Positions 9,161 through 49,119 of a DNA stretch of 49,119 nucleotides are shown here, piece by piece. Source of the DNA: Halocafeteria seosinensis (taxonomy: Eukaryota); assembly GCA_001687465.1 (NCBI GenBank), contig LVLI01000240.1, positions 1 to 49,119 on the forward strand, read 5' to 3'. The first letter of the stretch is position 1; each line of letters starts with the position of its first letter. Under the pieces are notes generated by a model. That model ran no database searches, was not told the origin of the DNA, and worked only from the letters and a program-made list of their open reading frames with translations. The position numbers and the translations under genes are program-made.

Positions 9161-10377
9161 TCTGCACGATACTGCTTCTATCGCAAGGATGACCTACACC
9201 TCTGCTGGAGTGAGGAAGAACACGACATCCAGTCCGGAAAACCAACACTGAGTGAATCATTGCTTGTGGAACAAGTTGTGATCGGCCCAATGTGGAACAC
9301 TGTACGAATCGACGCGCCAAAATTTGTTCGTTAAGCCACTCCTGTGAAGTTTCCATTATCTTCTGTACGGACTGCTATTCAACACCAGTGCATGTATGAC
9401 GTCGGTTGTGGTTTCGTTGGCAGCTTGAGTGGAAACTCCCGATGTGGCATATTGGGTGTGGCTGTCCATTGCGTAGAAGGCGACTGGTTTTGGCGAGCGG
9501 TGGGTCGCTCGTTGTAGTTCGGACGACTATATAGTTTCGTAGCCGCATTTCTTGTGTATAATTCCATATTTACGTATTTTATTCTGCCAAATTTAACGGA
9601 TACCATTGTGGTGCAAGAAGTGTGGCTTGGTCCTCGTCGGCAACTCATTTAGTACAACACGTGAGCGGACGCGCGGGGTCGATGGATGAGCGACGCGAAG
9701 TAACCCCTGAAGGCCAGAAAATACCGGAGGCGAAAGACCCACCACCTCCACCAAGACCGCATCGATTACGACCTCGTATGGAGTACACACGTGAGGAGGA
9801 AGGTGATCTCCACTATCCTCAACCGGTGTCGGCAAGAGTCCGTGGACGGGACTTGCTCAGTGAATTTAACCAGCGCGATCCAAACATAAAGTAGCTTTTG
9901 GTGGTATCCACTGGGCTTCATTATTGCGCATTCAATAAGTATTGACACGATATCTTACCTTCAGAAGTAGGGCATCAGCACCGAGACCACTTACGTTCAA
10001 CCGCGCGACAACGAAGTCGGACTTTGCGCACAATTGGCAATAGCAGAAAAAGAGTAAAGGGATCGGAGTGCGTTGAAGTCCGAATCAACACAACTTGCAC
10101 ATATTGATTTTTCTGCAAACACATCTTGTAAATCGTGAGGTGGCGCTGATAGCCAGGAGAATACAATGGCGCCGCTCTACTGTACGAGATTAATGAATGG
10201 ATGATGCCTACAGATATACCGAATGAAAAGAAGCGATTGACTGGAGACATCGTATTAGCTCGATAGAGCTAGGAGAAAGCGGACAGCGTTGTAGTAGCGG
10301 ATTGGAGTCCAGAAACTCATATTGTGAGAGCGATAGCTAGCACATCAACAAAGGCTAACGTACGTGATGCTATATTC

Positions 10378-18021: not shown

Positions 18022-18810
18022 AGCAGTACTCTGCTGTAATACTGTTCATTCAACTGGTTGTTCGTGAGTCTACTTCTGGCGGAGAATAAACGGAATGAGT
18101 CACCATGCGACGCGGCCTGTACAGTACAACCTGGTCTCCTTACGCGGTGGCTTCCACCTCAGCGGCTCAGCCTGACTGCGCTTTGCTGTAGCTTAGCAAG
18201 GCAAATTGGACTAAACACTTAGCCAATGCTTCGAACAAATCCAATTTGGTGCTGTTAAATTCGTTGAGTCCCACTGTTGAAGGTTTTGGTGTTCTGCAGT
18301 TCGCAGCAAGTGCAATTGCGTTCGCAGGTTAAAATCGCACCCCAAAGTTACACCCACCACTCCGTTCAGTAGTAGGAAAATAAAAGTAAAAAACCTTGTA
18401 GCTATGAAAAGAATGAACAACTTTAACCTCAACAACTAAAAGTCGCCTGCGAATCTTGATAACAGGACATCAATCATTGCTTTGGAGAATCCCGGTCGGC
18501 CGAATCGTCTGAGGCGGGCGCAAGAGGAAGAAGATAATGCTCAGCCAAAAGCGCGATAGAAATGTTTTTTATAGTACTATTTACTACTTAAAACTCACAT
18601 CAGGGTTCACTGCTCCAGTGGGTTTGGAAACTAAATGGGAATATCCAGTACCACTGTATCTTCGTGTCAAGAGTGGATAAGCCTGGACCTCAGAGTGCGA
18701 TGTGGAGAGCACAAATCGTGACTATGCACGCGCTACAGCGTTCCTGCGCTGAGATGAAATCCACTCTGTCGTGTTGTGCTCGTACAGCGTTCTCATTCTT
18801 AGTACCTAGT

Positions 18811-23527: not shown

Positions 23528-26500
23528 ATGAAGTCTGGAAGACGCTCAGCAAGGAGCTCGAGGAGCTCTCATTCGAGGGCTTCGCGTAGATCCTCTGCAA
23601 CGACAAGGTCTGCAATGAGTAGGCCTTTGCCTCTCCTAGAATACAAGAAATGGGCAGTCAGTCAAGCTGTGGATCCCCCAAAAGTGAAACGATACGGATT
23701 GTGGAGTGATGTCATTTCTAGAGAGCGTTTTACCGCCTCCCGCGATGAGCGCTCTGGGACTTTAAAGACTGTAATAAAGAAGGCTACCCCAGACCCGTTC
23801 GGAAGCCCTCCACCTACCGTGAAGAGGAGACGACGCGGGTATACTCGGTCGAAGTTTCGATACTCACAGACTCCTGATTTTTCTGAAGTGCCTCTCTATG
23901 ATACATTTGAAGAGCAGAGGCAGAAAGTGCAACAGGGCGAGGCGATATACTGCATGTATAGGGATACGAACAAGATGCCCCTGAGGGCTACCCGCCAATG
24001 CTTGGACTGTGCATTGATGGATCAGAAAAAGGGTGGATACTATTGTGAGGAAGAATTCCATCGGGCGCATCCTTGGTACAGAAAGACCCACGAATGGGTC
24101 TATGTCATCCAAAGACCCGGAACACCACCACCAACTAAGCTAACGAAAGCCGAAAAAATGAAAATGGCTGCAGAGGACTTGCTGAAAGAGATTGGAGAAA
24201 CCAAGGAAGAATTCCGCAGAGGTGCAACCGAATCAGTACGTGTGTTGCTCCTGCAATTTGAATCCCAGTATAGCTTGCGACATTCTTCTTCGATCACTTT
24301 CGAAGCAGAGCAAACAGGAAACTATCCGGGCAGCAGAAAGCTGTGATATGTTACTAGAGCGCATGCTGTATGTGCAGACTTACATGTTCATAATATCAAG
24401 TGCTCACATTAAATTCCAATTAGTTTTCTTGTGGCGCAGCGGCCTAGTAAGTCTCGTTAGGAATGACACCAGAAGAAAACATACGTTTGCGGCGAGGGCT
24501 ATCCAGGTAGGTTTTTCTTCCATCGTTGACGCATGTTGCCATTAATGGATAGTTGATATTTGAGTTCCCAGAGGATGTTCCACACTCACCGTTCTTGGAA
24601 AAGACTGAAAACAATGTTTCGAATGAGGTATCAACAGGCTATTGACGAGGATACCAACCTTCCTTTTTACATTGACAGATACACCGATAAGGTTCGTCCA
24701 TAGGACAATCATCGTGACCTCGTTACTGCATTATTTCGAGCAACGTCTGCAGACCTTGATCCATAAACCGACACTCCTAGGAGTAGATGTTCCCTTGGAT
24801 TATTTCCCCTCTGTACGTAGATAGCCAGGGTACCATCTTGCCTCATTGCCACCTGTAAGCATTTGAAATCCTGCAGGTCACATATATGGAACTCAGCGAA
24901 AACGAGGCAGCTCATAAGATACAGGGGATGATTAGGACTGCTAACGCAAAGACACATCTCCGGAATGCGTGTCGGAGCATTTACAGAATCATTCGTGACA
25001 AGTCTTCGGGGAAGAAGTACTATTTCAACAAGCGTAAGCTCCATTATGTGTGCACTACTCCAGAAGAAGGAACTATAGGCAACTCTTGCGGACGTGTATT
25101 ATACAGTCACTGGTGAAACTACTGCTAAGAGACCTATACTACTTGGTCCTGAGAAGAAAACGAAACGACGGATTGTGAAAGCTAAAGAGTCCTTAGGAAT
25201 ATCTTCGCTCTCTTCGAATACCGCTTTCAACCTTGAGCGTTCCCAGATTCAGTCGATCGGAACAGATGAGGTCAGCAGCTCGGTTTCAATCCATTTGAGC
25301 TACCGTTTGTGTATGTATATTTAAGATATGCTCTCTGCAGGCAATTATAACTTTGCAAAGATTTGCTCGGAGGGTCATAGCCAGGGGCCGTGTACTGCGC
25401 CTACTTCCTGAGGTTTACGAAAAAATATTCGATCCTGATTCAGGGGAATATTTCTACCACAATAAGTATGTAGTAACGCGTAGCACTGGCTTCTCCATCG
25501 ACTTTATTATACCCCTAACTGCGCAGAAATATGGGAATCTCGACATGGGAGAAGCCTTTCATCTTTGGTAACGCGGATATCAAAGCACTGGACGAAATGA
25601 TGGAGCCTTCTGAGGCCTATGAAGTGGAGAAAAGGCAACCGATTAAACAGGCTCATCAAATGGATTACGACGAAGCAGCCACAATGATACAAACGATGTG
25701 GAGATCACTAAAGTCACGGGAGATCTTCGCTAATTTAGTCCGACAAGTGTGGAGTCATGTATGCTTTTTTACCGTTGAGTCGTGAGATTGCTGCTGTAAC
25801 TCACCATCTTTCACATGAACCGCACAGCATTTTGATCAAAGCTACGGAATGCATTACTTCGTCAACAACAATACTGGCGAGTCGACATGGGAAGCTCCCT
25901 ACATCATACAAGTGTACTTGGGAACCGATGAAGAAGACTCTGCCCAATTTGGTGACTATAAGTCGGCAAGGTTGGGTAATAGACACATTAGCCCCGTGGA
26001 GGCAGCAGCTATGATCCAAACTGCGTTTAGACGATACATAGCGGCTGTTCACGCTTTTGAATTCGCGCAAAGGGTATGTATTCTGAGACCTTACAATTCG
26101 AGCTTGCATTGTCCTCAATTCTGTACTACAGGTTTACGAAAAAGTATGGGACGAAGAAAAGCGGAAATTTTACTACTACAATCTTAAGACTCAAAAGTAC
26201 TTATGGACAAAGCCTCTGATTTTAGGCAAGGGCGACCTCTCAGAAACACCGGTTTCGCATGCAAAGTCGCTTAAGTATAAGGCCTTGAACAAAAGACCTC
26301 CCAGATTTGGCCGAGCGAAGGAGGACCTCAGCACATTGGAAGGGGTAACAAAAATTCAAGCATTTTACCGATACATTCGCGATCGTCAAGTTGCGAGACA
26401 GTATTACCTATCGATCTTTGAGAAGGTATGTTGCTTAAGTAAAACGTGCTCGGGCGAATAAGTATCGAGGAGAAAACATATTGCAGGTGTGGGACGAGGA

Positions 26501-28493
26501 ACATCAAATGCCCTTTTTCTTTAACCGACTGTCTTTAACCGCAACATGGTCGCCACCAAGGATCATCACTAACCTACCCATAAAGTTACTAGACTATCAG
26601 GAAAGCAAAGCGGCTTCATACGGGATCCGTCCTCTGGAAGAGCCAGGATCGGTGGACTTAGTCGCAAACAGACATGAAGAAGTTTCAGCCTATTCCACCA
26701 TTTCAATGGTCCCGGAAGAACCTAAGGAGGTTATTGAAGCCCAAAATACCCTTTCCGACGTGACGAAAAATGCGAAATCTGATAGAGACGCCAGCCTAAA
26801 GTACAAACTTGCTGCTGACTCGCTTGCATCGGTTGTGTCTCCTTGGGCAAGGACCAAAGCCGGAGAGGGAATACTGGACAGTCGTGCGCCTGATCGCAGT
26901 GCCAACAGCGCTATCCGGGGAAAGAAAGGGAAAAAGCACCCAGACTACGCGGCAACACGCATTCAATCATTTTGGAGAAGAATATTGGCCATTCAGGAAA
27001 CACGAACCCTGTTGTCAGACACCTACAAATGCTGTTTCGACACGATGCTGCAGCAGTACTATTACGCGAACATATACACTGGCGATACATCGTGGAATGA
27101 GCCGCGAATAGTCAGCCGCTTATTTTGTACCGTTTGCCCGAAGGAGAGCGGATCCACGGAGCTTTTGAATCATGAGGATGCATCAAAGCCGATAGGGACC
27201 TCGTTCCATGCCATTCGCCCAGTAACAATTGCTGGATTCACAGCGCTCAGCAGGAATACTGGTCATGAAGACACACACCATATCCCACAAACCTACTCTG
27301 AGAGCATCCTGGAAGGGGATTTGTCTGGAAGGGATAGACAGATTTGCAAGCATCTTGGAATAAATTTAGGCCGTGTAATCACGCTACAATCCTTGAAAAC
27401 CGAGCCATCTGCAGATTTCAAGGCTCGGATCAGCAAACAGTTTCTCAGGAGTTTAGTAGCGGAGCAGCCGGAGGCACTATCAAACATTGACATCGAGAAG
27501 TTTTGGAGAGAAAAGAGGCTAAACTGCTGGCTGGCTTTGGAGCGTTACGTGAAAAAGAGTATCATTGACGCGAAGCGAACAGCGATAGAATCCTTTTTAG
27601 CCGAGCACCAGAGTACCCTGGACTCTGTCATCAGGGGGATGCGGAGAGTTTCAAACGAGTTAAATTTTCCGCAATTGTATGAGCAGTATATTCTGGAAAT
27701 GGAGAGAAGAAGATTCGAGAGACAAACAAGCCGAGTAGATGGCACAGAGCTTTGCGAAGTAAGTAGAATACTTCGGCAATCCAGGGACGGAACACTTCCG
27801 ACAAGCAGCTTACCTGGTTACGGACAGACGCACACACAACAGTCGGTAGAGTTGCCTTCCCCGCCCCTTCCAGCTTTGAAGGAGGCTCGTAGGGAATTTC
27901 TCAGTAACCTGACAGAGTATATAACTCCTTCTGTCAGGCCCATTACGGCGGACTCCGCAGCAGTGAAGACACGCGAGACCTCCTTCCGAAAAAAACGGAA
28001 TAGTGTGGTGACTGTTCACCGAGGAAAGTTGTTCGGCACGGTGGCGTCATCTTCCAGGGCAATGAGAAGAGATCCAAGTAAGAGTACTCCGCGTCCGGGG
28101 CGAAAGCGGCCACCCTCAGTAGACAACACAGCGGTGGAGGCGACTAAGCTAGCCGCTTTGTGGCGTGGGTATCGAACACGGAAGACAACTAAAAGAATAG
28201 CGCAGCAAAAATACGTGAAAGTTTTCGATCCAACTTTGTCAAAAGTTTTCTACTACAACGAAGAGACAGGACACAGCTCGTGGTACAAGCCTATCATTCT
28301 TCATGACACTGATGTGCGGATGACTCCTCGAAGCCAGATCCCAGAGTCCACGCTGACTCCAACTGGTAGAGCCGCTTCGACTCGCACCGAGTATGAGAAA
28401 GGTGCCAACGCCGCGGTGGCTGCAATAAAAATACAGAGATTGGGAAGGCAGTTCTTAAGAAAGCAGCATGACCGGTACGAAAAGGGAGAGTAA
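23528..28493 (+). CDS. Protein with alternating IQ motifs and WW-like domains plus an N-terminal B-box-like Cys/His cluster, multi-exon
   Basis: IQ: AATMIQTMWRS, AAAMIQTAFRR, AATRIQSFWRR, AAIKIQRLGRQ. WW-like: YEKIFDPDSGEYFYHN..STWEKP, HYFVNNNTGESTWEAP, YYYANIYTGDTSWNEP, FYYNEETGHSSWYKP. Cys/His cluster CLDC..YC...HRAH..THEW. Confidence 0.85.
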
Positions 28494-28531: not shown

Positions 28532-30655
28532 TCATTCTGTTTTCAATTTGCTTCTTGATCGCCACATCAGCAGCTTCCAAAGCATAATACTGGCAGCTGA
28601 AACCACGAAGTTAATAGACACTCCTACGGTTGCTAGCTTGAGTCCGAACAGCACTTCCCTTTGGCGGAACCAAACCTCGGCAGAAAGACTCAAACTTAAT
28701 CTGTGAAGAGTGTTGATTAATGCAACAATCTCATTGTGTTCCAATTCTACGGAAGATAAATCTTCTGAAAACATGAGTCTTAAGGCTGTACCAAGGCCTA
28801 AGAACTGTAGCTTTCCCCAGAGTCTGCATTTTTCGCATCCTGTATAGCATTGTAAGCAGAGTAACGCGGGGGGTGAGACAGATGATCGGCAGAATGAAGC
28901 AACGAACGTACCTACGCAATCCATGATCAATGAGATGTTGCGGAACTTTGTTTGGAATTGCTTTTTCAGGTTCTGTTTGAATGCCAGTTCTTCTTTCAGT
29001 TTGCGTTGAACTTTTTCAATATCCTCTTGGCTCCCTAGAAGCTCGGGTGTCGCGGCCATAAAATCCGCAGACTTAATTTTAAACATGCTCTGCTCATCGA
29101 ACCCCTTCGCAATCAATGGCTCATCGATTTCTAACAATGAGTTCATTTGATCTCTAGTTTTTCTGTCGTCATCTTCGTTCCCGGAGGTTAGGTTCTGTCG
29201 CAAGAGAGGATCCGCGCGGACTAATGCTCGCACAAGGAAAAGATAGGCGAAGTACAGGTTTCGTATCCTCTGCGGGTGGTTCCCGACTCGTGCTGCAAGC
29301 GATAAAATATTTCTTTCACGAGATCATATTTAACATCGTTTTTGTACTTGTCTCTTACCTTTCCACATTTCTAAACTTGGTTTGCCGTCGTTTACTGTCA
29401 GTGCAATGTGAGAGTTTATACTGGTTTGCAGACCACTAAGCAGCCGGAAAAAAACTCTTTCCTCAAAACATAAGTCCTTAGTGTGCCCCGCAAAACAATT
29501 TTCATCGTAGATTGATTGCCAAAGTCTCCTAGCATTAGGTCCGTCGTATCTGCACAGCGGAAAGGACATAATCTTGCATGCCGTGTTGATTGTGGAATTG
29601 CGGACGGTTACGTACCCGGTGTACCCTTCAGGATTGACATGAAGGTCAACATATCTCATGTCGGGTGATCCGTCATCTTGTACAATCCACAGATCCAACG
29701 CATTCTGCAATTTGCATAGCAAGTCCCAGTCGCGCAAGTAAGAAGCTGGAGCGCACCATGAAACTGCAACCTACCTGATTCTTCGCCACTTCCCAATGAG
29801 CAAAATCTCTACCTACTTGCTTCTGACTGGACTTTATTTTGGCTAAATGTTCCTCGTACGGACTCAGGTAGTCGTCAGGGCAGGATGCTAAAGATGATTT
29901 CTGATCTGCAACTCGTTGATACCGTATTGGAATTTATCCAGGATAGATAACACGGCAAAAAATTCTCAACCCTCACTTTGCTCAATCTCCCCGCGCCAAG
30001 CTCGAGGAATATCATCAGGAGCACATACACACACCGAGCAGTCAATCTGTAACACCTCAGTTCTCTGGGATCAATTTGCAACAGCCAACTTCCCAGCGCA
30101 AGAACTTACTTTGGCACACTGACCATCATCCGGCCAGAAGGGGCACGATTTCCACAGATCCACCTTAAAGAAGCGAAAATACACTCTGCAGACGAGACAG
30201 CCCAACGCATGCATACACGATATGCCAAGCATGCATACATTTCCCCGTACCTCTGCGTTAATTCATTCAATGTGGGCAGGAAGTGCTCCTTGTTCATCTT
30301 CTGCACCGTGTCTGCATCGCAGCAGCAGTCTCCGATTTTGCCGTCTCGCATGAGGGACTTATCCTGAGACGCACATGCACATAGACATGGACATGAATGA
30401 AGGAATGTGCTTGTAATGATGCGTTGACAGACGTACATCCGGGACCAATACGGACGCCAGGCGCTCCAGTCCTTTATCTAGGCATTCATGAGCGTATCCG
30501 GCACGATTCACTGAATCTCTGTTAAGCTTTGTATCGTAGTGATGGGACCGAATACGCAACGTATCGGCTATGTAATGGGTAAACCCTGAAGAAGCGCCTA
30601 CTTGCACTTGAACGCACGACACCACAAGAAGCAAGATGACGCCACGGGAGACCAT
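28532..30655 (-). CDS. ERO1: Endoplasmic reticulum oxidoreductin 1, multi-exon
   Basis: Signal peptide MVSRGVILLLVVSC, then DCCCD, FFKVDLWKSCPFW, YVDLHVNPEGYTGY, WQSIYDENCF, CFEERVFFRLLSGLQTSINSHIA and FRNISLIMDCV|GCEKCRLWGKLQ (CxxCxxC). Confidence 0.97.
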
Positions 30656-32270: not shown

Positions 32271-34175
32271 ATGCGATTGACACTATGTGCCATCCATATT
32301 GCACTCGCGTGTGTGTTTTTGATGGCCCAAAACGCGAATGCTGAAGCAGCTTCACTTTATCCCGCCCGACTCCGTAGAGGACATTCCCGAACTCAGCCAT
32401 CCGCCGCCGAAAGCCAGGAGACGGTCGGTATTAACGATGAGGTAGGCCTTCATTAGATGGCGTGGCAGATTTAGTGCAGTCGAATCATACCGACATTGGC
32501 ACTTTTTTCGCAGGTGACCGCGTTTCGAACAGCGCTGACGCAAGGTGGCTTCGACTGGATCACTGACACGGCGGTGAAAGCCATTGACAAGTATTTCACG
32601 ACGATTTCTATTCCAGAGCTGACATTTGAAAAACTGAAAATCAAAGGAAAAGTATACAACATAAAATGTAGCAAAATTTCCGTTAGAAACATTGACATGA
32701 AGGTGCAAGACAAACTGCACGGAACGGTCTCCGGCTTCCAGGTAAGCTGATACTGAAAGTTGGAGCTTCTAGGGTCTACATTCGTATCTCAACTATGATG
32801 ATAGCAGTTTCACTGCGATGCCAGATGGGAGTTGAAGCTCGCGATTTGGCCTCACCCCCACAAGCATGGATCTGCTGAGGCCTCTACTTCTGGTGCGGGC
32901 GCCAACCTTGTAGTTGGAGTAACTCATGACAACAACGGCCATGCAAAAGCTAATCCGGATACCATAGATGTTAGCTTAGGTGACCTACATGTACATATAC
33001 ACGGCGGTGTTATCGGAGGCATCTTGGATTTCTTCAAGAATATATTCAAGCACTGGATCGAGAAACACATCCGCGAGGCCGTAAATAAGGGTCTTAAAAC
33101 TGCCATTGGCGACAGAGTTAATCACGCACTGCAAAGAATCCCAGTGGTGGTTAACCCTATAAGTTCTCCTCCGTACAACGTTTCAACTGTCAAGATGGGG
33201 ATAACGTCAGTACCGCACGTTACGTCGAAATATATCGGGGCTGGACTGCAAGGGTACTTCGTGGATTCTGAGAATCCAACGAAACTGCCGCCGTTCAAAC
33301 ATCCTTCCTTGTAAGTACATAATGTTCATATTGATAACTCGCATGACCGTTTCACTCTACTGCTGCTCAGACCAAACTACGAGGAATCCACGGCAGAACA
33401 GGCATACCTTCAGTTGTTGATTTCCGGATACACCGTGGAGAGCTTCTTCTGGGTGTTCCAGTCCGAAGGCCTACTTCAGAAGACTATCGGGCCCAGTAAC
33501 GTCCCTCCCAGTTTCCCCTTGAAACTGAATACCCAAGATCCTGTGTGGGATGCAGTTGCTCCAAAGATGCCTTCAGTATATCCCAAAGATGATGTCCATA
33601 TTGTCTTCGAGATCCAGCCGGGAACAAAAGTCCAATCGTCAAAGAATGACAACTCTTTCTCCGTCAACATGCCTATCGCCATGGATATACAAGCAATAAC
33701 TCGCACTGGTGCAAAAAGTGCTTTTATCCTCGGGTGTCCAATGAAGTCTGCTTTGAAGGTCTCAGTGGAAGAGAGGAAAAATACTACAACGAAGCAAACA
33801 TCTCAAGTCATCGCAGGCAATATGGAATATTTGTCGTGTGATTTGAAGCTCGAGAACTCCACCGTCGGTAAGGTCCACTACTCTGCTTTGAAGAAAGGGA
33901 TTGACTTTGCTATCGAATATCTTGTTATGCCTCTCTTGAACAATGTCTTACGGGTAGGATTCCCCATTCCAAGTGGAGACTTTGTAACTCTCAAGAAAAC
34001 GTCCGTAAAATTTGGTGATGACTATGCGGCACTTGGGTCGCAGATATCAGTAAACCTAACAAAGATACTCGGCGACGCACCACCGATGTACATAGACTAT
34101 CTAACCACAGAAGAACTGGCTCGTATAGATGCCGAGTTCCGAGAAGAGAACGACCTCCCCAACACTACGTGGTAA
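32271..34175 (+). CDS. BPI/LBP/CETP-family lipid-binding protein, secreted, multi-exon
   Basis: Signal peptide, then ALTQGGFDWI..TISIPEL, VHIHGGVIGGILDFFKNIFK..I, VNHALQRIP, ISGYTVESFFWVF..G.L and MPLLNNVLRVGFPIP. These match the two-domain BPI pattern. Confidence 0.85.
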
Positions 34176-38338: not shown

Positions 38339-39623
38339 TTAGCTCTTGGGTTTCCGTTTCCGACTGACGCTCCTACTGCGGCTCCCTGGAGTAGATCTAC
38401 TTGTGCTGCTTTGACTGCTCCTTGGGGCCCTTGGGGCCCTTGGGGTGGATGCACGCGTTCTTGAAGTGCTCCGTTTCTTACTTGAACTTGATGAAGCAGT
38501 AAAGCTCTGCTCAGCTTGGCGAACTGCATTGGCAAGCACAGCTGCTGAACGCTGCGGGCGTCGTTCTGCGATATTATCCCCTATGGCATTAGGGTTTGTC
38601 CCAGTGAATATCCGATAAAGGAAGTTCCAGGGGATTAAGGCGGGAACTTGCTCTTGGTAATGCTCGTATTGCTTCCCAAAATGATCGATCAACTTCCGTT
38701 CTTCCAATGGCAAGCCAACGGCGAATAAATAGCTCAGAAGGGAGACAGCCATCAAGGTTCGATCCAACGTTATTCTTGTTGAGCATAGGCACATCAGTAA
38801 CTGGCACGTGTACATCGGATGTCGTACAAAGCCATAGATACCAGTGGTGTGCAACTGATTGGAATGTTCAGCCTTTGTCCCAGATTTTCTTGAGCATCCG
38901 AAAAAGTCTGGGAACCCAAATGAAGCAACAACACCGAGGGCACACAGTCCAAAGAAGGTTGCCAGGAACAAATCCAAAGCATATCGCTGATGGGGAGCTA
39001 ATCCCAGAGCGCTTTCCACTGGGAACTCGTAGATCGTCACTGTACCAGCACGAGATAGCATAGGTAGTGCCAACAACAACTAACAGACATGGTCTCTCCA
39101 TGAGCATACATACCGCGAAGAGGCACCCAAAAGCCCATAAAGAGCACAAATAAAATGCCCGAGACGAAGTTGTAAACTCCTCGATATTGTCCTTCACTCA
39201 ATCCAGCATATCTCTTTCCCATTTTGTACGCTGAGGGCTTTGCCGTCAGCGAGTGAATAATGCCAAAGATGAGGAACAGTTGAACATTCATGTACGCTTT
39301 GACCGGGGTACTCCATTCCTCCACTGCGAAAGGCCACCAAGAAGCCTTGGGCGTTAACGTCCTCAGACCCTCGCCGTGATATACAGCTCGCATGACTTGC
39401 ATGACGTCCAATGGATCCCTGCAGTGCGCGCACATACACGTACGCAGTGTGATACAAGGAACTGGATCGGAAGAACTCACGTCGAGCAGTCGTTAGCGAC
39501 CCAAATAGGCCATAACGTCAACGTGAGCATTCCAATCGTCGCTAGGACGAGGGTTGCACCCGATTTGATGCTCTCTTTGAGGCCTCCATGGCCTTTCCGA
39601 GGCGCACTTTTAGTTCGCGCCAT
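38339..39623 (-). CDS. Nurim / MddA-like membrane protein (isoprenylcysteine carboxyl methyltransferase superfamily), 3 exons
   Basis: FGIIHSLTAKP, YRGVYN, FW.PL, DFFG, TTGIYGFVRHPMY and LEERKLIDHFGKQYEHYQEQVPALIP. Exon 1 (39623-39481) splices in frame to 39418. Confidence 0.88.
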
Positions 39624-40211: not shown

Positions 40212-43200
40212 ATGAACCGTCTGTTGACTCGTCATGGAGCAGGGGGGCGCCTGTATAGGAGCTCCATGCTCCTGGTCTCTCAACCCCCGATGTCTCTGAC
40301 ACGCTCTGGAGCAAATTTCACGACCAGGAGCTTCCAGGGGCCCTCTTCCATCGCTATCGGCGACATTTCTGCCCCGCTGAAAGCTCCCGCCAGCCCCCAT
40401 CTTGTGCCGCGGAATGGGAATACGGACGAGTTACTGGGGAACCTCACGGAGGAAGAAGTCAGTCATTTGAGGTAAGAATTCCAACCGTATTCACGTGCAT
40501 GCCACTATGCACGTTTTTCTTTGAATATTTCACGATGCAGATGGATGCTACAAAAGGATCGTCTCGGACAGGACATGTTTCTCCTGGGACCTCCTGGTAA
40601 GGTTCCAACTCGCTCGCCAAGTTTCTCATCGAAGGGGTTAGCCCTAGGTGCTCACTACAGGTCCTGATCGGAGGCGATTGGCATTACTGTTTTGCCAAAT
40701 GATGCAACGGGAGGTAGAGTTTATTTCGCTATCCAGAGATACAACCGAAAGGTAGGCCGCTGCTTCCGTGGCCGCCTTTCTGTTGCTAGGTTGACGTTGA
40801 CGTGCATGTCTTCCTCGTACTGCAGTGATTTGAAGCAGCGGAGAGAAATCGAAAAGGGGGAATCGTACTTCACTGATCAAGCTCCTGTCAGGGCTGCCCT
40901 GAATGGTCGTATCTTAGTCATTGACGGAATTGAGAAGGCCGAACGCAACGTTCTGCCTACACTGAACAATCTATTGGAGAATAGAGAAATGTCGCTCGAG
41001 GACGGCCGATTCCTGGTAAGCCCTCAGGCTTGGCAACGACTATCAGAGCACCATGGCACGACTCAGGACTCTCTTGCTGTAGGCGCTCACACGCTAGTGA
41101 AAGTACATGAAGACTTTCGTGTGATTGCTTTAGGGTTACCCAGTCCTCCATTCCCCGGGAAGCCTTTAGACCCTCCGCTACGATCACGGTTTCAGGCCAA
41201 GTTCATCACTCCCAAGAAAGCGGTGTTACCTTCCCAAAGCGACAACGTCCAAGAGGTTTCAACAAATTTGGCATCTTTTCAAGCGACGTACACCATGCTC
41301 CATGCGGATTCATTGACAAATGCTGCATCCAGCCGGCTTCCACCGTTTCCGCCTCACAGTGTAGAAGGGGTAATGAGGCAGATTGCGGTATTTCCTGATG
41401 ATGCCGTAGCTGTAGGGGATGTGTTGCACAGAAGCTTCCCGTTCACTCTCATGGATGATATCTCTCGTCATATTCGCCAGAAATTGGAGCATGAGGCCCG
41501 CAAGCAAAAGAAGGAATCAAGTACATCACGATGGGGAGCAGGCTGGGCCGGTTCTTTCGATGCGTTCAGTCAATCAAAAAATGATGGGCCAAAGGAGTCA
41601 AAGGAAGACACACATTCTCTCTCGGATAAGGTATCTCAAGTACTCGATACTGACTTGTTTCAGGTGCTCCGTGGAACATCGTGCTATTTTGACAGCGTCA
41701 ACCCATTAAGGCCCGCAGGAGTTACGCGGGACCAAGCAAGGCAACACGCTCCCGGGATGTTTTCTTCTGAGAGTTCTGGATATCAGCTTGAATCCATTTC
41801 CTCACAGGAGACAGGATTGTCGACAATTCGGTTCCGAAGCAAAGCTACCGGCGAGCAAATAGACGTCGAAGCTGCCTGTGGAAGTAACTGCTCTTCCATG
41901 GACAGTCTCGCTGTGCAGAATTGTAGTATCGCGCTTACGGAGAGCTTTGAGGCATTGATCACTCGCCTTCTCCAGGATCACTCTATGAATCACGATCTGT
42001 GCCTCGTAGGAGATAAGGTACGACGGTGAGGGTCAGTTTCTACTTGCGTAACATTTGCAATACAGAGTGTCAACGTCTATCCTGCAGGGTGCCGGCAAGT
42101 CTATTGCAACCCAATCTTTTGCGGAAATATTAGGCTATGATACAGAGTTGATCCCCCTTTATGCTGACATGTCGGCCCGTGATCTCTTACAGAAACGGGC
42201 AATAGACCCAGATACCGGAAATACAACCTGGAGTGACTCACCGTTGGTAAGTAACATAATATTTGCCCATATGGGCCCATAGTTTCACCTGTGTTTCTTG
42301 AATCCCTCCTGACAGGTTCACTCAGCGTTATCTGGAAAACTGTGTGTGCTTGATGGGCTTCACACCTTGGCAGGTGATGTTGTATCGACGCTACAACGTC
42401 TATGCGTTGATAGGGAGTTAGATCTGTTTAATGGAAACCGATTGGTATCTCGAGAAAAGTGGAACTATCTTCGCGAAAACTCGTTTATTGACGACTCAGG
42501 AAGGTCTGTAGGTGCTGGAGAGAATGCCAACAAAATCCTACCGATCCATCCGTCTTTCCGAATTTTTGCACTATCTAAGGAACCCTCTAAAGGAGTAATG
42601 TCACCGGAAACAGTGAGCTCAACCTCGTCTAATCACATTGCTTGGTTACATCCGGAGGTGCTCGGCATGTTTCGATTCCACACGCTTGGCGATGAGTTGC
42701 CCGATCAGGAGAAGTCTGCTATACTCAGTAGACAGTGTAGAAGTCTAAGTGAATCGCTTATTTCAAGGTTATGCACATTCAATTCTTTTCTCAAGAAAAA
42801 TCATTCAAGTTCCACGCGGGATCAACGGGAATCTCTGTCCGGGCTGTCCTTGAGACAACTGATTAAACTTGGAAAACGCTGCGAAAGTCACCTGAAGAAC
42901 TCAAAAAGCGACTCAGCAAATCTCAATATCCGGGATGATGTCCATTCTTTGCTCTTGACTCGGTTTTCTCCATCTTCCGTGAAATCTTCAGTCGATAGCG
43001 CACTGCGCGAAGCTGGGTTTCCGACGAAGCGTGGACCGGAACAGACCGATGGGACGGTTGTTGAAATCAATTATTCAGATGCTGGCGATGGATCACGAAC
43101 TTTACGGATAGGAAGGGTTGAAACCAACTCCTTGGACAGACCCACCAATCCCGAGCTGGTTCCTCACCCGCACTTTTATGACATTCCTCAACACAAGGTG

Positions 43201-45804
43201 CATTTGATGAACATGCTAGCTGATCTAAATGCTGGAGAGAAGCATCTTCTGCTTATCGGGAATCAAGGAACTGGAAAAAATATGCTGGCAGATCAGATGC
43301 TGCATCTTCTGAACGGAGAAAGGGAATACATGCAGTTACACCGTGATTCTACGGTAGGTGCACTTACTCTTACACCTGCTCTCGTTGACGGCAAACTCGT
43401 ATGGGAAAACAGTCCATTGGTACGAGCTGTTCGCGAAGGGCGAACTCTTGTTCTTGATGAAGCGGATAAAGCACCGACAGAAGTAGTTAGCATCGTCAAG
43501 AGTCTCATTGAAGACGGTCAAATGTTATTGGCTGATGGCCGGCGGATCGTGGATGAGGGCAGGTATCATACTTCTGAGGAGGAGGCAGACATAGTGCCGC
43601 TACACCCCCAATTCCGATTGTGGGTCCTGGCAAACAGGTATGTGCTTTCCACGTTGGCCAGTTGTTTTTTCCTTTACTCGACATACTTTCCACGTTCAAA
43701 TTCTGCAGACCTGGCTGGCCGTTCCTCGGTAATGATTTCTTTCGAGAGTGTGGAGGTATGTGCGTCGACAACGGTTGATACACTCTTCCGTAACAAGCCA
43801 AAACCTTGCTCTCCCTGTGGGCCGTACATGCAGACATCTTCTCGACTCATGTAATCGACAATCCAGGTATGTAATATTGGTCCGTTTCTGAGTTCCTCTA
43901 ACTCCTCATTTTCCCTTTTTATCGTACATGCAGATATTGAGAGCGAGGTATCACTCTTACAGTCTTATGCTCCTCGTTTGGAGAAAAATATTTTAAAGCG
44001 ACTGGCCTCCGCATTCTCCAAACTCCGAGAAGAGCACGAGACAGGAGGAATTTCATATCCGTATTCGACGAGAGAAGCCGTCGCGGTGGTCAAACACATG
44101 TCTTGTTTCGAGACTGATAATGTATCGCATGCTCTTGAGAACGTTCTCGCTTTCGATGCATTGGATCCTCATTTGCGCAGGAAGATTGTGGATATATTTG
44201 CTGAAGAAGGCTTCCGAGTTGCAGATTCGCCCCAGGCTACCTTTGGCTTTATGAGGAGCCTCTGGGATATGCGAAAAGGTGGAGATGAGGATAATGGATC
44301 TAAATTTTGGAACCTTCGCTCCGACGACCTCCGAATCCAGCGTTTTGACAATGAAGGGAATCCGTTCCAGGAGTACTCACCATCTTCCTCTACTCCCCCG
44401 CCTATCCAGTCTCCCAAGCATGGTCAGGTAGATGACGAGGAACATATTGGTGGGAGTACATACGCTGGTGGTACGGGTGGCTCGAATACTGCCGGTATGG
44501 ATTTGTATCTTTCTATGTCGATGTATCTTGAGTTATCCTAACGTCTGTTCTTGCAGGTCTTGGAGGACGCGGCGGCCCCTATCGGTTAGACAAGGGCCAT
44601 ACAGTGCATCAGGTCAGCGGTGATTGCTAACATATTTTATTACACTGAGAGCTTCATTAATGTGTTTTGAGTGTTTGCAGGTTTCGGAAGAAGCTAAAAA
44701 GGACGTGCCCCCAGAAGTACAAGAAAGAGCGAAACAAATGGCACAAGATGCGTTGAAAGAGCGGCTGAACGAGATCAAAATGTCTGAAGGGCAAATGGTA
44801 TGGTGCTGATAGTGAAGTACTAGCTATTCCTTGGCAATTTCATATTGTGGTGATATGCGTCCAGGAAATGTACACAAATCTCTTGGATCATGTAGGTGCC
44901 CATATCCATGCGCTGCGTAACGTCTTAGAAGCTGCGGAGATGAAGAACGAGGAACGCGTTTGGAAGAAGAATCAATTGCAAGGAGATCTGGACGACTCGA
45001 AGATAGTTGACGGAGTTACGGGGGAAAAAAACATATACAAACGCCGCGTGGTGGAGGACGTCGAGGAAGATCTACACAGCAATAATAAAGTCAAGCTTCA
45101 TTTTGTCCTCGACGTATCGGGGAGTATGTACAGGTTCAATAACCAAGATGGTCGGCTCAACAGATTGTTAGAAACATCGGTAATGATCATGGAAAGCTTT
45201 AGAGGTAAGCGCGCTGCGAATGAGTTTCTGTCTTTTCGACATTTTACCTTTTCTGCTGCTTCCGCAGGATTTGAAGACCGTTTTGACTACTGTATCGTGG
45301 GACATAGTGGGGACGCTGAGAAGATACCGCTAGTAAACTATGGCTCCCCACCCCAAAATGAAAAGGAACGTCTTGAAATCCTGCAAACAATGGTTGCACA
45401 TACGCAATTTTGTATGCCTGGCGACCATACTATCGAAGCAACTAGAACTGCTATTTCTGAAGCATCTGCTCTTGATGCCCCCAGTGGAGGCAAATTTGTA
45501 TTCATTGTATCGGATGCTAACCTGCGGCGCTACAACATTCCTCCCGAGGCCCTGGCGGAAGAAATCAACAGAGCCTCGAATTCTTTTGTCGATGCGTACG
45601 CTGTCTTTATCGCTAGCATTGCCGATGAGGCTCATCGTGTTGCTGATGCCCTACCGACGGGGCGGTAAGTTCTGTAAAGCTTACCTATGTTGGCTGTATA
45701 ATTGCATTTTCTTGTTCGACTTTGACTGCAGTGGCTATCCTGTATTTGATACTAGCTCTATTCCAAGTATCTTCCAGAGCATCTTTGTGGATAAGTTCCA
45801 GTAA
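40212..45804 (+). CDS. VWA8: von Willebrand factor A domain-containing protein 8 (AAA+ ATPase with C-terminal VWA), multi-exon
   Basis: RWMLQKDRLGQDMFLLGPPG, SDLKQRREI, DGIEKAERNVLPTLNNLLENREM, LLIGNQGTGKN, LDEADKAP, GGTGGSNTAG|LGGRGGPYRLD and LDVSGSMYRFN. Arg-rich N-terminus resembling a mitochondrial presequence. Confidence 0.97.
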
Positions 45805-45955: not shown

Positions 45956-46549
45956 CTAACTTACGAACGGTCGGCTTCCGACGGAAGTTTCGGGCTCGAC
46001 GGCTCCCATGTCTCGTACCGCCGGTGGGCCATCAGTCACATCTTCGTCGTCGTCTCGTACCAGCAGAGCCCTGAACAAAATATCTGCGGAATCCAGTCCA
46101 ACTTCGAGAAGCACAAATGAAGTGAGTTGAGCTTCGCATGCAAGCCTTCTTGGGAGCGCGTATAATGACTTACGGTATTTATAAGCATAGTCAATAGGCA
46201 AAATCTGTAGACTTTATCTAACGAATGCGGCGGCGCACTCGAACTCATAATCCCGTCCGATTCCAGACCGGGAATTTCCGGTTCTCCACAGGAAAACATG
46301 TCTTGCACGCCCCTCTTGTACCGGTAATAGCTGTCCATCTTCGTTTTTGCGATGAAGCCATTCCAGAACTCCATTAGCCTCACTTTCCGTATTGTCCTCA
46401 CTCGTTTCCAAACATTTCCCAATACTACTTGCGAAGGTTTCCTTTTTGCCTTCCTCCTCTTTGACGTTGCACCCTCCCGTTATGAACCAGCCCGGAATGC
46501 ACTTCTCTTTGATGGCTTCTAATAATCCAGGCTTTGGTTCTGCAGTCAT
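45956..46549 (-). CDS. Small hypothetical protein, exon structure unresolved
   Basis: ATG-started ORF MTAEPKPGLLEAIKEKC plus overlapping same-strand ORFs. No family recognised. Confidence 0.3.
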
Positions 46550-47310
46550 TTTCGTGTTCTTTTATGTTTTGTCGTTTCCGTTGGCTCTGCCGCGACAAAC
46601 TTCGTCTCCAGTAACCTAACCGGTTTGGGGTTGGCTGCGTTGGGCGAAGTCAATTCAACCCCCAAACCAAGTGACATCTACTTCCGTCTCATACAGTAGA
46701 TAGGACTATGAAATGGTGTTGTGCTATGCTTGCTGTGGGTAGCCAACAACAACAAGATTTTTTCCAATACAATGTCCTGGAACTAACTTCGTGGTACACC
46801 CAGCATGCTGTGTGTGCTATTATGCATGTATGGATATAATATGATGCTACTGTTGTACTTGTACCATGTACTCGTGTACCGTTATGGGTAAGAAGAAGTT
46901 AATGGTGCATTGATTGTTTCTGCTCTGTAATATGAGGATCAGAATCGTCGTGGCGTGTTTCCTTTTGTCAGACGCCGCGCTAGCACGGCCTATGAGCAGG
47001 GAAAGCTTAAGGGTCATTACCCTGTACAGAATAAGTCCCAAATGGATACGAGGTTTGAAGAATGGTTTAAAATTGCAAACGACTGTAAAATTTATAACGA
47101 CGGGAAACCAGGAGAGAGAGCACTGTTTCGGCTGAGAGAGGCTCTGTCTTCTTTGGTGTCCGAACTCTGCTACGATGAAAAAGGTAAGCCATCGTAGTAG
47201 TGTGTATTGTTATGGCCTGCCAGCTAGGAAGAGCTTTGAGGGCCTTGTTTCTTAAGTAGGTAACACAGTTTGCGTCCGAAAACTGTATCGAGACAGTGGC
47301 GTGGTGGAAT

Positions 47311-48312
47311 CTAATGCTGAGGGATGAAAAAAGTGATAAGGGAGAATGTTGGACCCATAAATTTTGCTAGTTCTTTCCTCTTTTTATTAAATATTGATTG
47401 TGTAATTTCGTTACTATGTTTCTTTTTTTCCATTTCATCTAAAAAGGTGCTTACATACATTTGCCGTAATTCATTTACGGATTTACCAATTAGACTTCCT
47501 AAGATATCACTAAAATAACGAGCATTTACTGGTTTACTATCTTTTAAGTCTACAACTAATAAATAGTCTCCATCTTTAATAACTTTAAGATTTGATTTTT
47601 TAACATAATTTTTAATGATATATCGTAGTTCAGTATTGTTAATATCTATCTGGTGTTCTCCATAACTTCTGCTGGTTTTATGAGTTCTATTAACTAACCT
47701 CCAATTATCCAAATCCATATAATTTCCTGTATCTGGTATTTTAGTTTTATTCCAATTACAAATTTTCACACTGTAATATTCTTGACCTCTTAAAGGTGGT
47801 AGGAAGTAATAGAATGATATGATTAAATAACGTTTCCATTTCAAATAATCAAAAGGTTCATTGTTTCTATCTCTTTCCTTTAACTCTTCTTTAATCTCCT
47901 CAAATTTCTTTTTAATGTCTTCTGGTTGTATTCTAGTTTTTAATTCCTTCTCTGTAGGTTCTTTATAAATATCTTCTTCATTACTCTCTCTTTTGTATTT
48001 CTGGTCGAAGTTCCTAAAGAGTTCTAATACCGTATTAATCTTTTCATTATCAATTTCTTCTTTAGTTATCTCTGTAATGACCAACAAAGCCCTCAAATAT
48101 GTTATGATGGTAGTTCTAGAATAGTTCAATTGTAAATGGATAATTACGTTATTTCTGTTATCAAACAATTCATTTATCAATTCTTCAAAAGTAGAAGGTA
48201 TAGCTTTACAAGTAAAACACTCAGTAGATAATTTTTTAAGGATATTCATATATCCATTAACAGTGCTGGGCTTCCTTTTAATAGATAATTTAGTTCTTAA
48301 TAGTTCGTCCAT
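47311..48312 (-). CDS. Tyrosine recombinase/integrase of viral type, C-terminus apparently truncated
   Basis: STVNGYMNILKKL N-terminal motif, LPPLRGQEY (catalytic R), HKTSRSYG (K), VNELRQMYVS (xxLR) and ELAKFMG. The expected His and catalytic Tyr are absent (MGPTFSLITFFIPQH*). Confidence 0.85.
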   Translation of the reverse strand: MDELLRTKLSIKRKPSTVNGYMNILKKLSTECFTCKAIPSTFEELINELFDNRNNVIIHLQLNYSRTTIITYLRALLVITEITKEEIDNEKINTVLELFRNFDQKYKRESNEEDIYKEPTEKELKTRIQPEDIKKKFEEIKEELKERDRNNEPFDYLKWKRYLIISFYYFLPPLRGQEYYSVKICNWNKTKIPDTGNYMDLDNWRLVNRTHKTSRSYGEHQIDINNTELRYIIKNYVKKSNLKVIKDGDYLLVVDLKDSKPVNARYFSDILGSLIGKSVNELRQMYVSTFLDEMEKKKHSNEITQSIFNKKRKELAKFMGPTFSLITFFIPQH

Positions 48313-48370
48313 TTATACGATATACTATAGATAATTATTTTAGATGTTTAAATTATAGAATAGATAAGGA
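48313..48370 (-). promoter_or_regulatory. 58-bp AT-rich divergent promoter region with four TCTA motifs on the minus strand
   Basis: TAGA on + at 48328, 48341, 48356 and 48361. The nearest TCTA is 15 nt upstream of the recombinase ATG. Confidence 0.5.
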
Positions 48371-49119
48371 ATGTCTACAAAGAAGAAAAGCATAGAGAAA
48401 ACAATGGATAAAATTTATTACAATGAAGGAAACCTATTTTCAAGAGATAAACTATTTGAAGTTATCAAGGATAGAAAGATAAAGATAACAAGGGATGAAA
48501 TGGATGACTGGTTAAAAAAGCAATATCTACACCAATTAACTAAACCACCTCCAAATTCAACCAAGGGAACAAGAAGTTTAAATAGTAATCAACCATTTAA
48601 TGTAATGGCTATGGATTTATCAAGTTTAGGAGATTTTATCTTCCTGGTATTAATTGATGTATTCACAAGGATGGCTTATGTAGAAATCATTGAAAATAAG
48701 AATGCTGAAACTGTAAAGAGAGGAATAAATAAAATCCTAATGAGACTACCAAAAATACGTAAAACTAGGAAAAGATACAAACCAAAAACAATATTAAGTG
48801 ATAATGGAGGAGAATTCAAGAATGGAATATTAAGAAACTTTATGAAGAAGAAAGGAATTAGACAAATATTTAGTATTGCTTCAAATCCCCAATCTAATAG
48901 TGTAGTAGAACGATTTAATGGAAGCTTTAAGAGATGGTTAAGAAAAATGGGAATGTTAAATGATATCATAGACCAAAAGACAGTAAACAAGATAGTTAAT
49001 AATTATAATCAATCAAACCACGAAACAATAGAGATGAGCCCGAAAGAAGCACTAAAAGAAGAAAACCATAAAAGGGTTAAACAAAATCTATTTAATAATA
49101 GAACCTTCAACCTACAAAG
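48371..49119 (+). CDS. Retroviral-type (rve) DDE integrase, Polinton/mavirus-like, 3' end outside the window
   Basis: Manual translation, open to the window end: MSTKKKSIEKTMDKIYYN...PFNVMAMDL...LVLIDVFTRMAY...ILSDNGGEF...NPQSNSVVERFNGSFK...YNQSNHETIEMSPKEA. Exactly 35 residues separate the second D and the E. Not in the ORF track. Confidence 0.95.
   Translation, partial: MSTKKKSIEKTMDKIYYNEGNLFSRDKLFEVIKDRKIKITRDEMDDWLKKQYLHQLTKPPPNSTKGTRSLNSNQPFNVMAMDLSSLGDFIFLVLIDVFTRMAYVEIIENKNAETVKRGINKILMRLPKIRKTRKRYKPKTILSDNGGEFKNGILRNFMKKKGIRQIFSIASNPQSNSVVERFNGSFKRWLRKMGMLNDIIDQKTVNKIVNNYNQSNHETIEMSPKEALKEENHKRVKQNLFNNRTFNLQ

What the first reader, a model, noticed from the sequence alone, without database searches (positions are those of the whole stretch)
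47352..49119. Endogenous virophage/Polinton-like element encoding both a tyrosine recombinase and an rve integrase, head to head
Seen: abrupt AT-rich, intronless DNA after ~47350. A YR gene (-) and an rve integrase (+) with an intact DD35E triad, missed by the ORF track, diverge from a 58-bp spacer. The integrase has its own ATG, shows no clear HHCC zinc finger and has no RT or RNase H upstream, so it is not an LTR pol gene. Established: Polintons and mavirus-type virophages integrate with rve integrases, while Sputnik-type virophages and many Polinton-like viruses carry a YR. Mavirus-like elements occur as AT-rich islands in bicosoecid genomes and can protect hosts from giant viruses. Inference: this is the edge of an integrated dsDNA virus with two chemically different integration enzymes, possibly in a host where none has been described.
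Basis: partly seen in the sequence, partly recalled or inferred. Interest (0 to 1): 0.88.

Follow-up and report, generated by a model that had tools for sequence, protein, structure and literature searches.

The report
Broken end of dual-integrase endogenous virophage
A protist genome holds an AT-rich stretch with two back-to-back genes for different DNA-joining enzymes, one of them cut off just before its catalytic tyrosine; it is likely the broken end of an inserted virophage, a two-enzyme arrangement already published for such viruses, probably in this same host.

Summary
Both genes are real. An rve integrase (48371 to the window end; D82-D144-E180; its relatives end in a chromodomain) and a tyrosine recombinase (YR; Cre/XerA-like fold) diverge from a 58-bp spacer in 28% GC DNA next to 47% GC spliced host DNA. 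At 47351|47352 it loses the His and Tyr kept by 135 and 137 of 142 relatives. The junction is thus a break inside the gene, not a natural virus end, and no terminal repeat is seen. In a DNA run of this organism both sides continue into other sequence, so the junction is a rearranged copy or an assembly join. Matching contig lengths suggest the pair recurs in environmental contigs. The pairing is published for mid-GC EMALEs of Cafeteria and for a subset of Halocafeteria seosinensis virophages. The host is likely H. seosinensis (GC match, plus a recalled transcriptome prefix). Capsid, ATPase and protease genes could not be reached, so 'virophage' is inferred. Verdict: real but known, and this copy is damaged. 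Bold alternative (about 4%): a self-disrupting recombinase whose attachment site lies inside its own gene.

The parts
47353..48312 (-). Tyrosine recombinase gene (320 homologous codons; likely OLV11-like), truncated before the catalytic His and Tyr
   Evidence: (R175, K212, R283 kept; His and Tyr lost)
47311..47352 (-). Read-through tail of the YR ORF into host repeat DNA (13 non-homologous codons and a stop)
47351..47352 (.). Junction between host repeat DNA and the AT-rich element; lies inside the YR gene; no terminal repeat seen
   Evidence: contigs end at 47351 and 47352 with no overlap; GC change point; no long inverted repeat
48313..48370 (.). 58-bp AT-rich (17% GC) spacer between the two start codons; likely shared divergent promoter; four TCTA on the YR strand, not above dinucleotide shuffles
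   Evidence: 711 of 10000 dinucleotide shuffles reach 4
48371..49119 (+). rve (DDE) integrase gene, 249 codons seen, cut by the window end; full-length relatives are 380-393 aa with a C-terminal chromodomain
46440..47351 (.). Host-like (about 42-47% GC) multicopy repeat that abuts the element and is also cut at the junction; family not identified; left limit approximate
   Evidence: many divergent contigs; one runs on 52 letters unlike the window past 47351; no family hit for its two ORFs

Best explanation
[quoted passage not shown] Shown: the two genes, their divergent layout, the intact DD35E triad, the recombinase fold and the cut. Inferred from related systems: the rve-chromodomain integrase would join the ends of the linear viral genome to host chromatin and leave a short target-site duplication, as in mavirus and EMALEs. 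The intact recombinase of sister copies would recombine a circular form, perhaps into a giant-virus genome; this is proposed in print and untested. Both genes would be read from the shared 58-bp spacer when a giant virus infects. The virus's own end (terminal repeat and the last codons of the YR) has likely been lost by a deletion or rearrangement against a host repeat, so this copy's recombinase is predicted to be dead. The host is likely the bicosoecid Halocafeteria seosinensis (about 0.8).
For: Integrase: Pfam rve pass. Ten relatives at 55-77% identity are 380-393 aa proteins, and 10 of 12 aligned rows carry Chromo. The top Foldseek hit of a relative's model is the mavirus rve integrase (E 1.9e-12; weak model). 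YR: nearest folds are recombinase-like proteins of giant viruses and Qinghai Lake virophage, and AaV is named as a carrier of OLV11-like recombinases (PMC4642659). Pairing: 2 of 3 members of YR cluster 2 and 2 of 3 members of integrase cluster 6 lie on contigs of the same source and length (JGI 3819, ENA 4429). Several copies: run X1 holds divergent contigs of the element (two alleles each at 48511-48588 and 48560-48635; a 947-nt contig with 14 other letters and 30 gap letters). Their depths are 237-370 against about 100 on the host gene (a hint only, the tool warns that depth is no copy number). Literature: the pairing is reported for virophages but not PLVs of H. seosinensis, with integration genes near one end, AT-rich elements in a 47% GC host, and 18 fragmented virophages. 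Host GC here is 47.1% against 46.8% published. Two fragments of the same YR clade come from one eukaryote transcriptome, records GECG01005188/9; that this prefix is H. seosinensis is recalled.
Against: No capsid, penton, ATPase, protease or polymerase gene could be seen: the window ends in the integrase, no genome is held, and 8 collection scans gave no locus (searches found none; 38 could not run). The integrase model is poor (pLDDT 51), and retroviral integrases rank just behind mavirus (E 3.2e-12). The integrase search covered only 136-436 aa, so fused pol forms were not looked for. At 28% GC this piece is more AT-rich than the published means for H. seosinensis virophages (35%) and PLVs (34%). 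A 2025 survey of 8300 elements found YR with rve in only 11 PLVs and one virophage, always as an RT-fused retrotransposon insert (PMC12220804). The host name is not confirmed by any search (paper search for the prefix found 0 papers). In run X1 both sides of the junction continue into other sequence, which leaves an assembly join open.
Confidence: 0.68

Rival explanations
1. The genes are real and belong to a multicopy virus-like element, but the junction at 47351|47352 is an assembly or chimeric-read join, so the YR truncation is an artefact. This rival concerns only the junction and is compatible with a virophage origin.
For: The summed depth of bin 47328-47391 (184.6) equals those two contigs alone. 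The locus is a patchwork of repeats, and short-read assemblies of such elements are known to be error-prone (PMC10120064).
Against: These contigs drop rarer variants and some records are filtered, so they show the other forms, not the absence of this one. The two matches abut with no overlap, whereas misjoins at repeats usually need shared sequence (own knowledge). Nearby joints at about half the host depth (54 against 100) show structural differences between haplotypes. The window copy also differs from the main X1 copy by indels, as a distinct minority copy would. Fragmented virophages are common in the likely host.
Confidence: 0.3
2. The element is a Polinton-like virus, or a capsid-less virus-derived transposon, that carries the same two-gene module, and not a virophage.
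For: No virion gene was seen. rve integrases are shared between PLVs and virophages of H. seosinensis, and fragments with only replication or integration genes exist. OLV11-like YRs are common in PLVs.
Against: The 2026 preprint finds RVE plus YR in virophages and not in PLVs of that host. In Cafeteria the pairing marks virophage types 5-7.
Confidence: 0.2
3. The junction is the recombinase's own attachment site: the YR integrates the virus through a site inside its own 3' end and so removes its catalytic His and Tyr, like the 'suicidal' integrases of archaeal SSV1-type elements.
For: The cut falls inside the YR gene just before the catalytic His. YR genes of PLVs lie next to their attachment sites (PMC4642659). 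The main X1 contig also ends 5 letters past this point. A precedent exists in archaea (PMC8371274).
Against: Only one such junction is known. The host-side and virus-side contigs share no overlap, whereas YR crossover normally needs a shared core. Archaeal suicidal integrases split into an N part and a whole catalytic C part, not a 10-codon tail. The main X1 copy runs on through the point. All 9 close full-length relatives keep the tail. Such enzymes are described as archaea-only.
Confidence: 0.04
4. Two unrelated mobile elements (a Crypton-like YR transposon and a Ginger-like or LTR-derived integrase) lie next to each other by chance.
For: Neither gene was placed in a tree with named reference elements. 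The longer-protein search for fused forms was not run.
Against: Both genes share composition (GC3 24% and 25%) and have no introns. One X1 contig spans both across the spacer (47564-48540). The pair likely recurs on two environmental contigs at 52% and 74% identity. 58 bp leaves no room for separate element ends.
Confidence: 0.03

Closest known systems
Endogenous virophages of Halocafeteria seosinensis with RVE plus Yrec (bioRxiv 10.64898/2026.07.28.741278; parts 1-4 of 5 read, figures and supplements not seen)
   Same: Both integrases in one element, near one end; AT-rich island in a 47% GC host; often inserted in or beside host repeats; fragmented copies common. The host is likely the same species.
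   Different: This piece is 28% GC against a 35% mean. No terminal repeat is present here. The text does not state gene orientation ('head-to-head' occurs 0 times), and I could not match this copy to a subtype.
Mid-GC EMALEs (types 5-7) of Cafeteria burkhardae (PMC8547959; passages read)
   Same: YR in addition to rve-INT; rve-INT with a chromodomain; proposed roles in host and giant-virus integration.
   Different: Those elements are 47-53% GC in a 70% GC host; the low-GC EMALEs lack a YR. Sequence kinship of the two enzymes to EMALE proteins was not tested.
Mavirus rve integrase and Maverick/Polinton integrases
   Same: Stand-alone rve integrase with DD35E, no HHCC finger, C-terminal chromodomain; top Foldseek hit is the mavirus enzyme.
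   Different: 18% identity only, from a weak model; mavirus has no YR.
OLV11-like tyrosine recombinases of PLVs, Organic Lake virophage, PgVV and AaV (PMC4642659; passages read)
   Same: About 300-330 aa YR; nearest folds are giant-virus and virophage proteins, AaV among them.
   Different: The window protein sits in its own well-supported 10-member clade; membership of OLV11-like is inferred, not tested against OLV11 itself. This copy is truncated.

Membership tests
rve (retroviral-type DDE) integrase, Polinton/mavirus type | Catalytic D-D(35)-E triad in an rve core | tested here: met
   D82, D144, E180, 35 residues between the last two; Pfam rve 41.3 bits over cut-off 32.6
rve (retroviral-type DDE) integrase, Polinton/mavirus type | Stand-alone gene, not part of a pol polyprotein; no HHCC finger | tested here: met
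   Own ATG, YR gene upstream; one His and no Cys in residues 1-75. Fused forms in other records were not searched (one search covered 136-436 aa).
rve (retroviral-type DDE) integrase, Polinton/mavirus type | C-terminal chromodomain | tested here: inconclusive
   Beyond the window end; present in 10 of 12 aligned rows
Tyrosine recombinase | Lambda-Int/Cre/Xer fold | tested here: met
   Model pLDDT 93.6; XerA E 2e-4, Cre E 4.6e-4; 21 of 143 family members hit PF00589
Tyrosine recombinase | Complete active site R-K-(H)-R-H/W-Y | tested here: not met
   R175, K212, R283 kept; His (135 of 142 relatives) and Tyr (137 of 142) absent in this copy. It is a truncated member, not an active enzyme.
Virophages (Maveriviricetes/Virophaviricetes), endogenous | Virophage-type double jelly-roll MCP and penton | not testable with these tools
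   Window ends in the integrase; no genome held; no related locus fetched
Virophages (Maveriviricetes/Virophaviricetes), endogenous | Packaging ATPase and cysteine protease | not testable with these tools
   Same reason
Virophages (Maveriviricetes/Virophaviricetes), endogenous | Terminal inverted repeats and target-site duplication at the host boundary | tested here: inconclusive
   The boundary cuts the YR gene, so no terminal repeat is present at this end; the other end is outside the window
Virophages (Maveriviricetes/Virophaviricetes), endogenous | GC content and intron-free genes distinct from the host | tested here: met
   28.0% against 47.1% GC; host gene has 8 GT..AG introns of 62-78 nt; both element ORFs are colinear with their relatives
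Maverick/Polinton | Protein-primed DNA polymerase B together with rve integrase | not testable with these tools
   Downstream DNA not available
Suicidal (SSV-type) integrases | Attachment site inside the recombinase gene, with a shared core and the other gene part at the far end | tested here: inconclusive
   Cut is inside the gene, but contigs show no shared core; far end not available; tail not in the window

The most novel reading that the evidence does not exclude
The junction is the virophage recombinase's own attachment site: integration through a site inside the YR gene clips off the catalytic His and Tyr and locks the provirus in, a self-disabling switch so far described only for archaeal 'suicidal' integrases, while the neighbouring rve integrase offers a second, terminal-repeat route into the host.
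Probability: 0.04. Interest if true: 0.75.

Novelty: already known. Interest (0 to 1): 0.2.

Why it matters
As it stands, little. The two-integrase arrangement is published for endogenous virophages of two bicosoecids, and this copy is a damaged 1.8-kb end. What it adds is a compact head-to-head layout on a 58-bp spacer, a distinct YR clade and a likely environmental counterpart. These give a small test unit for an open question: whether the rve integrase serves the host genome and the YR the giant-virus genome. If the cut inside the YR proved to be a recurrent attachment site, it would be the first self-disrupting recombinase outside archaea.

Tried and rejected
No whole genome is held, so the contig could not be extended. 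Scans for loci of either enzyme found nothing: viral contigs (could not build patterns), metagenome contigs, genome contigs. tblastn of relatives P0005 and P0002 against the phage collection gave no match. The protein atlas gave no answer. No RNA holder was listed. In the three runs with spliced contigs (X2-X4) the element has almost no cover (0 in 8 of 8 bins from 47488 for X3 and X4, 0 in 6 of 8 for X2); this is not used as evidence of silence. No contig bridging 47351|47352 was listed in X1 (8 of 41 records shown); that is not proof of absence. The TCTA (mavirus/CroV late promoter) idea is not supported: 4 copies in the spacer, reached by 711 of 10000 dinucleotide shuffles, though by only 11 of 10000 mononucleotide shuffles. 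The missing YR tail is not elsewhere in the window. Rfam gave one chance-level hit far under its cut-off. The two ORFs of the left-hand repeat have no Pfam or NCBIfam hit. A host protein search did not name the host: best named hits were 31-57% identical and scattered over eukaryotes. Searches for the prefix GECG in two papers and in the library found nothing. The first tree run timed out; a FastTree run replaced it and holds no named references, so it cannot place the YR among EMALE, PLV or Crypton enzymes. No integrase tree was built. Look-ups in earlier findings by place and by sequence were empty. No complex prediction was sent.

Full report
Observation. GC is 47.1% over 1-47351 and 28.0% over 47352-49119; the best single change point is about 47356. 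Two ORFs fill the AT-rich part: 47311-48312 on the minus strand (333 aa) and 48371 to the end on the plus strand (249 aa, open). Their start codons are 58 bp apart, in a spacer of 17% GC. Third-position GC is 24% and 25%, against 44% and 51% in two host exons. The neighbouring host gene is a VWA8-like AAA+ ATPase (names), with 8 GT..AG introns of 62-78 nt shown by spliced contigs.

The integrase. It passes Pfam rve and has D82, D144 and E180 with 35 residues between the last two, and no HHCC finger. One search returned 6 proteins: five close relatives and one distant bacterial-labelled DDE protein. With cluster members there are ten close relatives at 55-77% identity and 380-393 aa. 10 of 12 aligned rows carry a chromodomain; in the window it would lie past the end. 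The search covered 136-436 aa only, so fused forms were not examined. A model of relative P0005 was poor (pLDDT 51). Its best viral match was the mavirus rve integrase (E 1.9e-12), with retroviral integrases just behind, so this leans towards a mavirus/Polinton type but does not prove it.

The recombinase. It has no Pfam hit of its own at E<=0.01. A profile of five close proteins found 668 relatives at E<=0.001, of which the best 150 were listed. I aligned 142 of 157 fetched proteins, dropping 15 outside 250-420 aa. R175 is invariant (142 of 142), K212 and R283 are kept in 141 of 142, and a His (135 of 142) and a Tyr (137 of 142) near the C-terminus complete the active site. 21 of 143 rows hit Phage_integrase. 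The model (pLDDT 93.6) matches XerA and Cre among solved structures. Among viral models it matches proteins of Hokovirus, Pyramimonas orientalis virus, HaV01, AaV and Qinghai Lake virophage. AaV is named as a carrier of OLV11-like recombinases (PMC4642659, passages), so that family is the likely home; this was not tested against OLV11 itself. The window protein and nine relatives form one clade with support 100 in a FastTree run without named references.

Homology stops after G320. Where relatives continue with the His and the Tyr nucleophile, the window reads 13 unrelated codons of host repeat DNA. All 9 close full-length relatives keep the tail. The tail is not elsewhere in the window. So this copy's recombinase is predicted to be inactive, and 47351|47352 is a break inside a gene, not a natural end with a terminal repeat.

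The junction in public runs. Four runs of one organism hold the stretch. A 189-nt contig matches 47352-47535 and has 5 more. The two matches abut without overlap, and the bin's depth is exactly their sum. Other forms of both sides therefore exist. Whether the window's join exists in the reads is not shown either way, since these contigs drop rarer variants and only 8 of 41 records were printed. The element has several divergent copies in X1: two alleles at 48511-48588 and at 48560-48635, and a 947-nt contig across both genes that differs from the window by 14 letters and 30 gap letters. The left neighbour, about 46440-47351, is itself a many-copy repeat, and joints at half the host depth show structural variation from 45898 onward. 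I put a real rearranged copy at about 0.7 and an assembly join at about 0.3.

Is the pair a unit? YR cluster 2 has members on contigs of 3819 nt (JGI) and 4429 nt (ENA); integrase cluster 6 has members on contigs of the same two lengths and sources (2 of 3 members each). They are about 52% and 74% identical to the window's proteins. The simplest reading is that the pair recurs on the same environmental contigs; I could not read their DNA. No scan returned a locus, so no virion gene was seen.

Host. Not named by any search. It is likely Halocafeteria seosinensis (about 0.8). Window host GC is 47.1% against 46.8% published for a diploid, repeat-rich genome (bioRxiv 10.64898/2026.06.25.734631, parts 1-2 of 3 read). 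Two fragments of this YR clade come from neighbouring records of one eukaryote transcriptome, GECG01005188 and GECG01005189; they are closer to P0020 (63%, 47%) than to the window (50%, 27%). That this prefix belongs to H. seosinensis is my recall; searches did not confirm it. That species has 74 virophage and 70 other MCP genes in a published survey (PMC10120064, part 2 of 7 and supplement rows).

What is known. All mid-GC EMALEs of Cafeteria encode a YR, and types 5-7 have it beside rve-INT (PMC8547959, passages). A subset of H. seosinensis virophages, but not its PLVs, encode both. The authors propose one enzyme for the host genome and one for a giant virus, place integration genes near one end, and count 18 fragmented virophages (bioRxiv 10.64898/2026.07.28.741278, parts 1-4 of 5 read; figures and supplements not seen). 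Against generality, a survey of 8300 elements found the two together in only 12, always through an RT-fused insert (PMC12220804, passages). Two 2026 frameworks treat RVE and YR mostly as alternatives tied to different replicases (passages). A model of end-module turnover would read the pair as a transient state in which one integrase replaces the other (PMC11296320, passages). An earlier unchecked note of this scan reached the same verdict for a similar pair in a fungal genome; I treat it as a lead only.

How it likely works. Shown: genes, layout, triad, fold, cut. Inferred: the rve-chromodomain integrase would insert the linear genome by its terminal repeats with a short target duplication (3-5 bp mostly in EMALEs, 5-6 bp in mavirus). 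The intact YR of sister copies would act on a circular form, perhaps with a giant-virus genome. Both genes would be driven from the shared spacer. In this copy the terminal repeat and the YR tail were likely lost by deletion against a host repeat. The spacer has four TCTA motifs on the YR strand, the mavirus/CroV late-promoter motif, but this is not above dinucleotide shuffles (711 of 10000).

Boldest reading. The cut could be an attachment site inside the YR gene, as in archaeal suicidal integrases, which a review calls archaea-only (PMC8371274, passages). One literature search listed no such case for virophages. The lack of a shared core, the single junction and the run-through of the main X1 copy argue against it: probability 0.04.

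Verdict. Real genes, a known arrangement, likely an already surveyed host, and a damaged or misjoined copy. Interest 0.2.

Noticed in passing
window 46020-46055: A short element of about 36 nt, single in the window, is matched by very many contigs in all four runs (bin depth 5056 in X1). They share the same ~30 letters before it and have many different continuations after it. It is probably the end of a high-copy repeat; a joint at half depth replaces 46004-46106 by 10 letters.
   Followed up: partly
window 46297-46930: Opposite-strand joints 46297-46929 (all four runs) and 46500-46930 (three runs) suggest that another haplotype or copy has this segment inverted or rearranged.
   Followed up: no
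window 46440-47351: Multicopy host-like repeat with two short divergent ORFs (46214-46549 minus, 46955-47197 plus), a common 1-nt insertion at 46977/46978 in other copies, and no family hit.
   Followed up: partly
window 47574-47582, 48358-48391, 48750-48790: The window copy has 9 extra bases in the YR and 21 extra in the spacer and integrase start compared with the main X1 contig. The integrase has an 8-residue basic insertion absent from its relatives but present in X1's contig.
   Followed up: partly
window 13489-18045 (-): A stop-free frame of 1518 aa with a likely signal region, three glycine-rich repeats that recall GLUG-type beta-helix adhesins (label recalled) and a Ser/Pro tail; no Pfam hit at E<=0.001 for the 1103 residues scanned. 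It holds the window's only N.
   Followed up: partly
window 40668-45680 (+): VWA8-like AAA+ ATPase gene; closest database relative only 65% identical, the rest about 31-65% over shorter stretches; 8 introns of 62-78 nt.
   Followed up: partly
window 32805-34175 (+): LBP/BPI/CETP-family lipid-binding protein gene (Pfam PF02886).
   Followed up: no
window 3961-7151 (+), 8603-9193 (-), 26439-28493 (+), 28532-29323 (-), 38339-39079 (-): Ordinary host genes: ABCG-type transporter, F-box protein, WW/IQ protein, ERO1 and a PEMT/ICMT-type methyltransferase.
   Followed up: no
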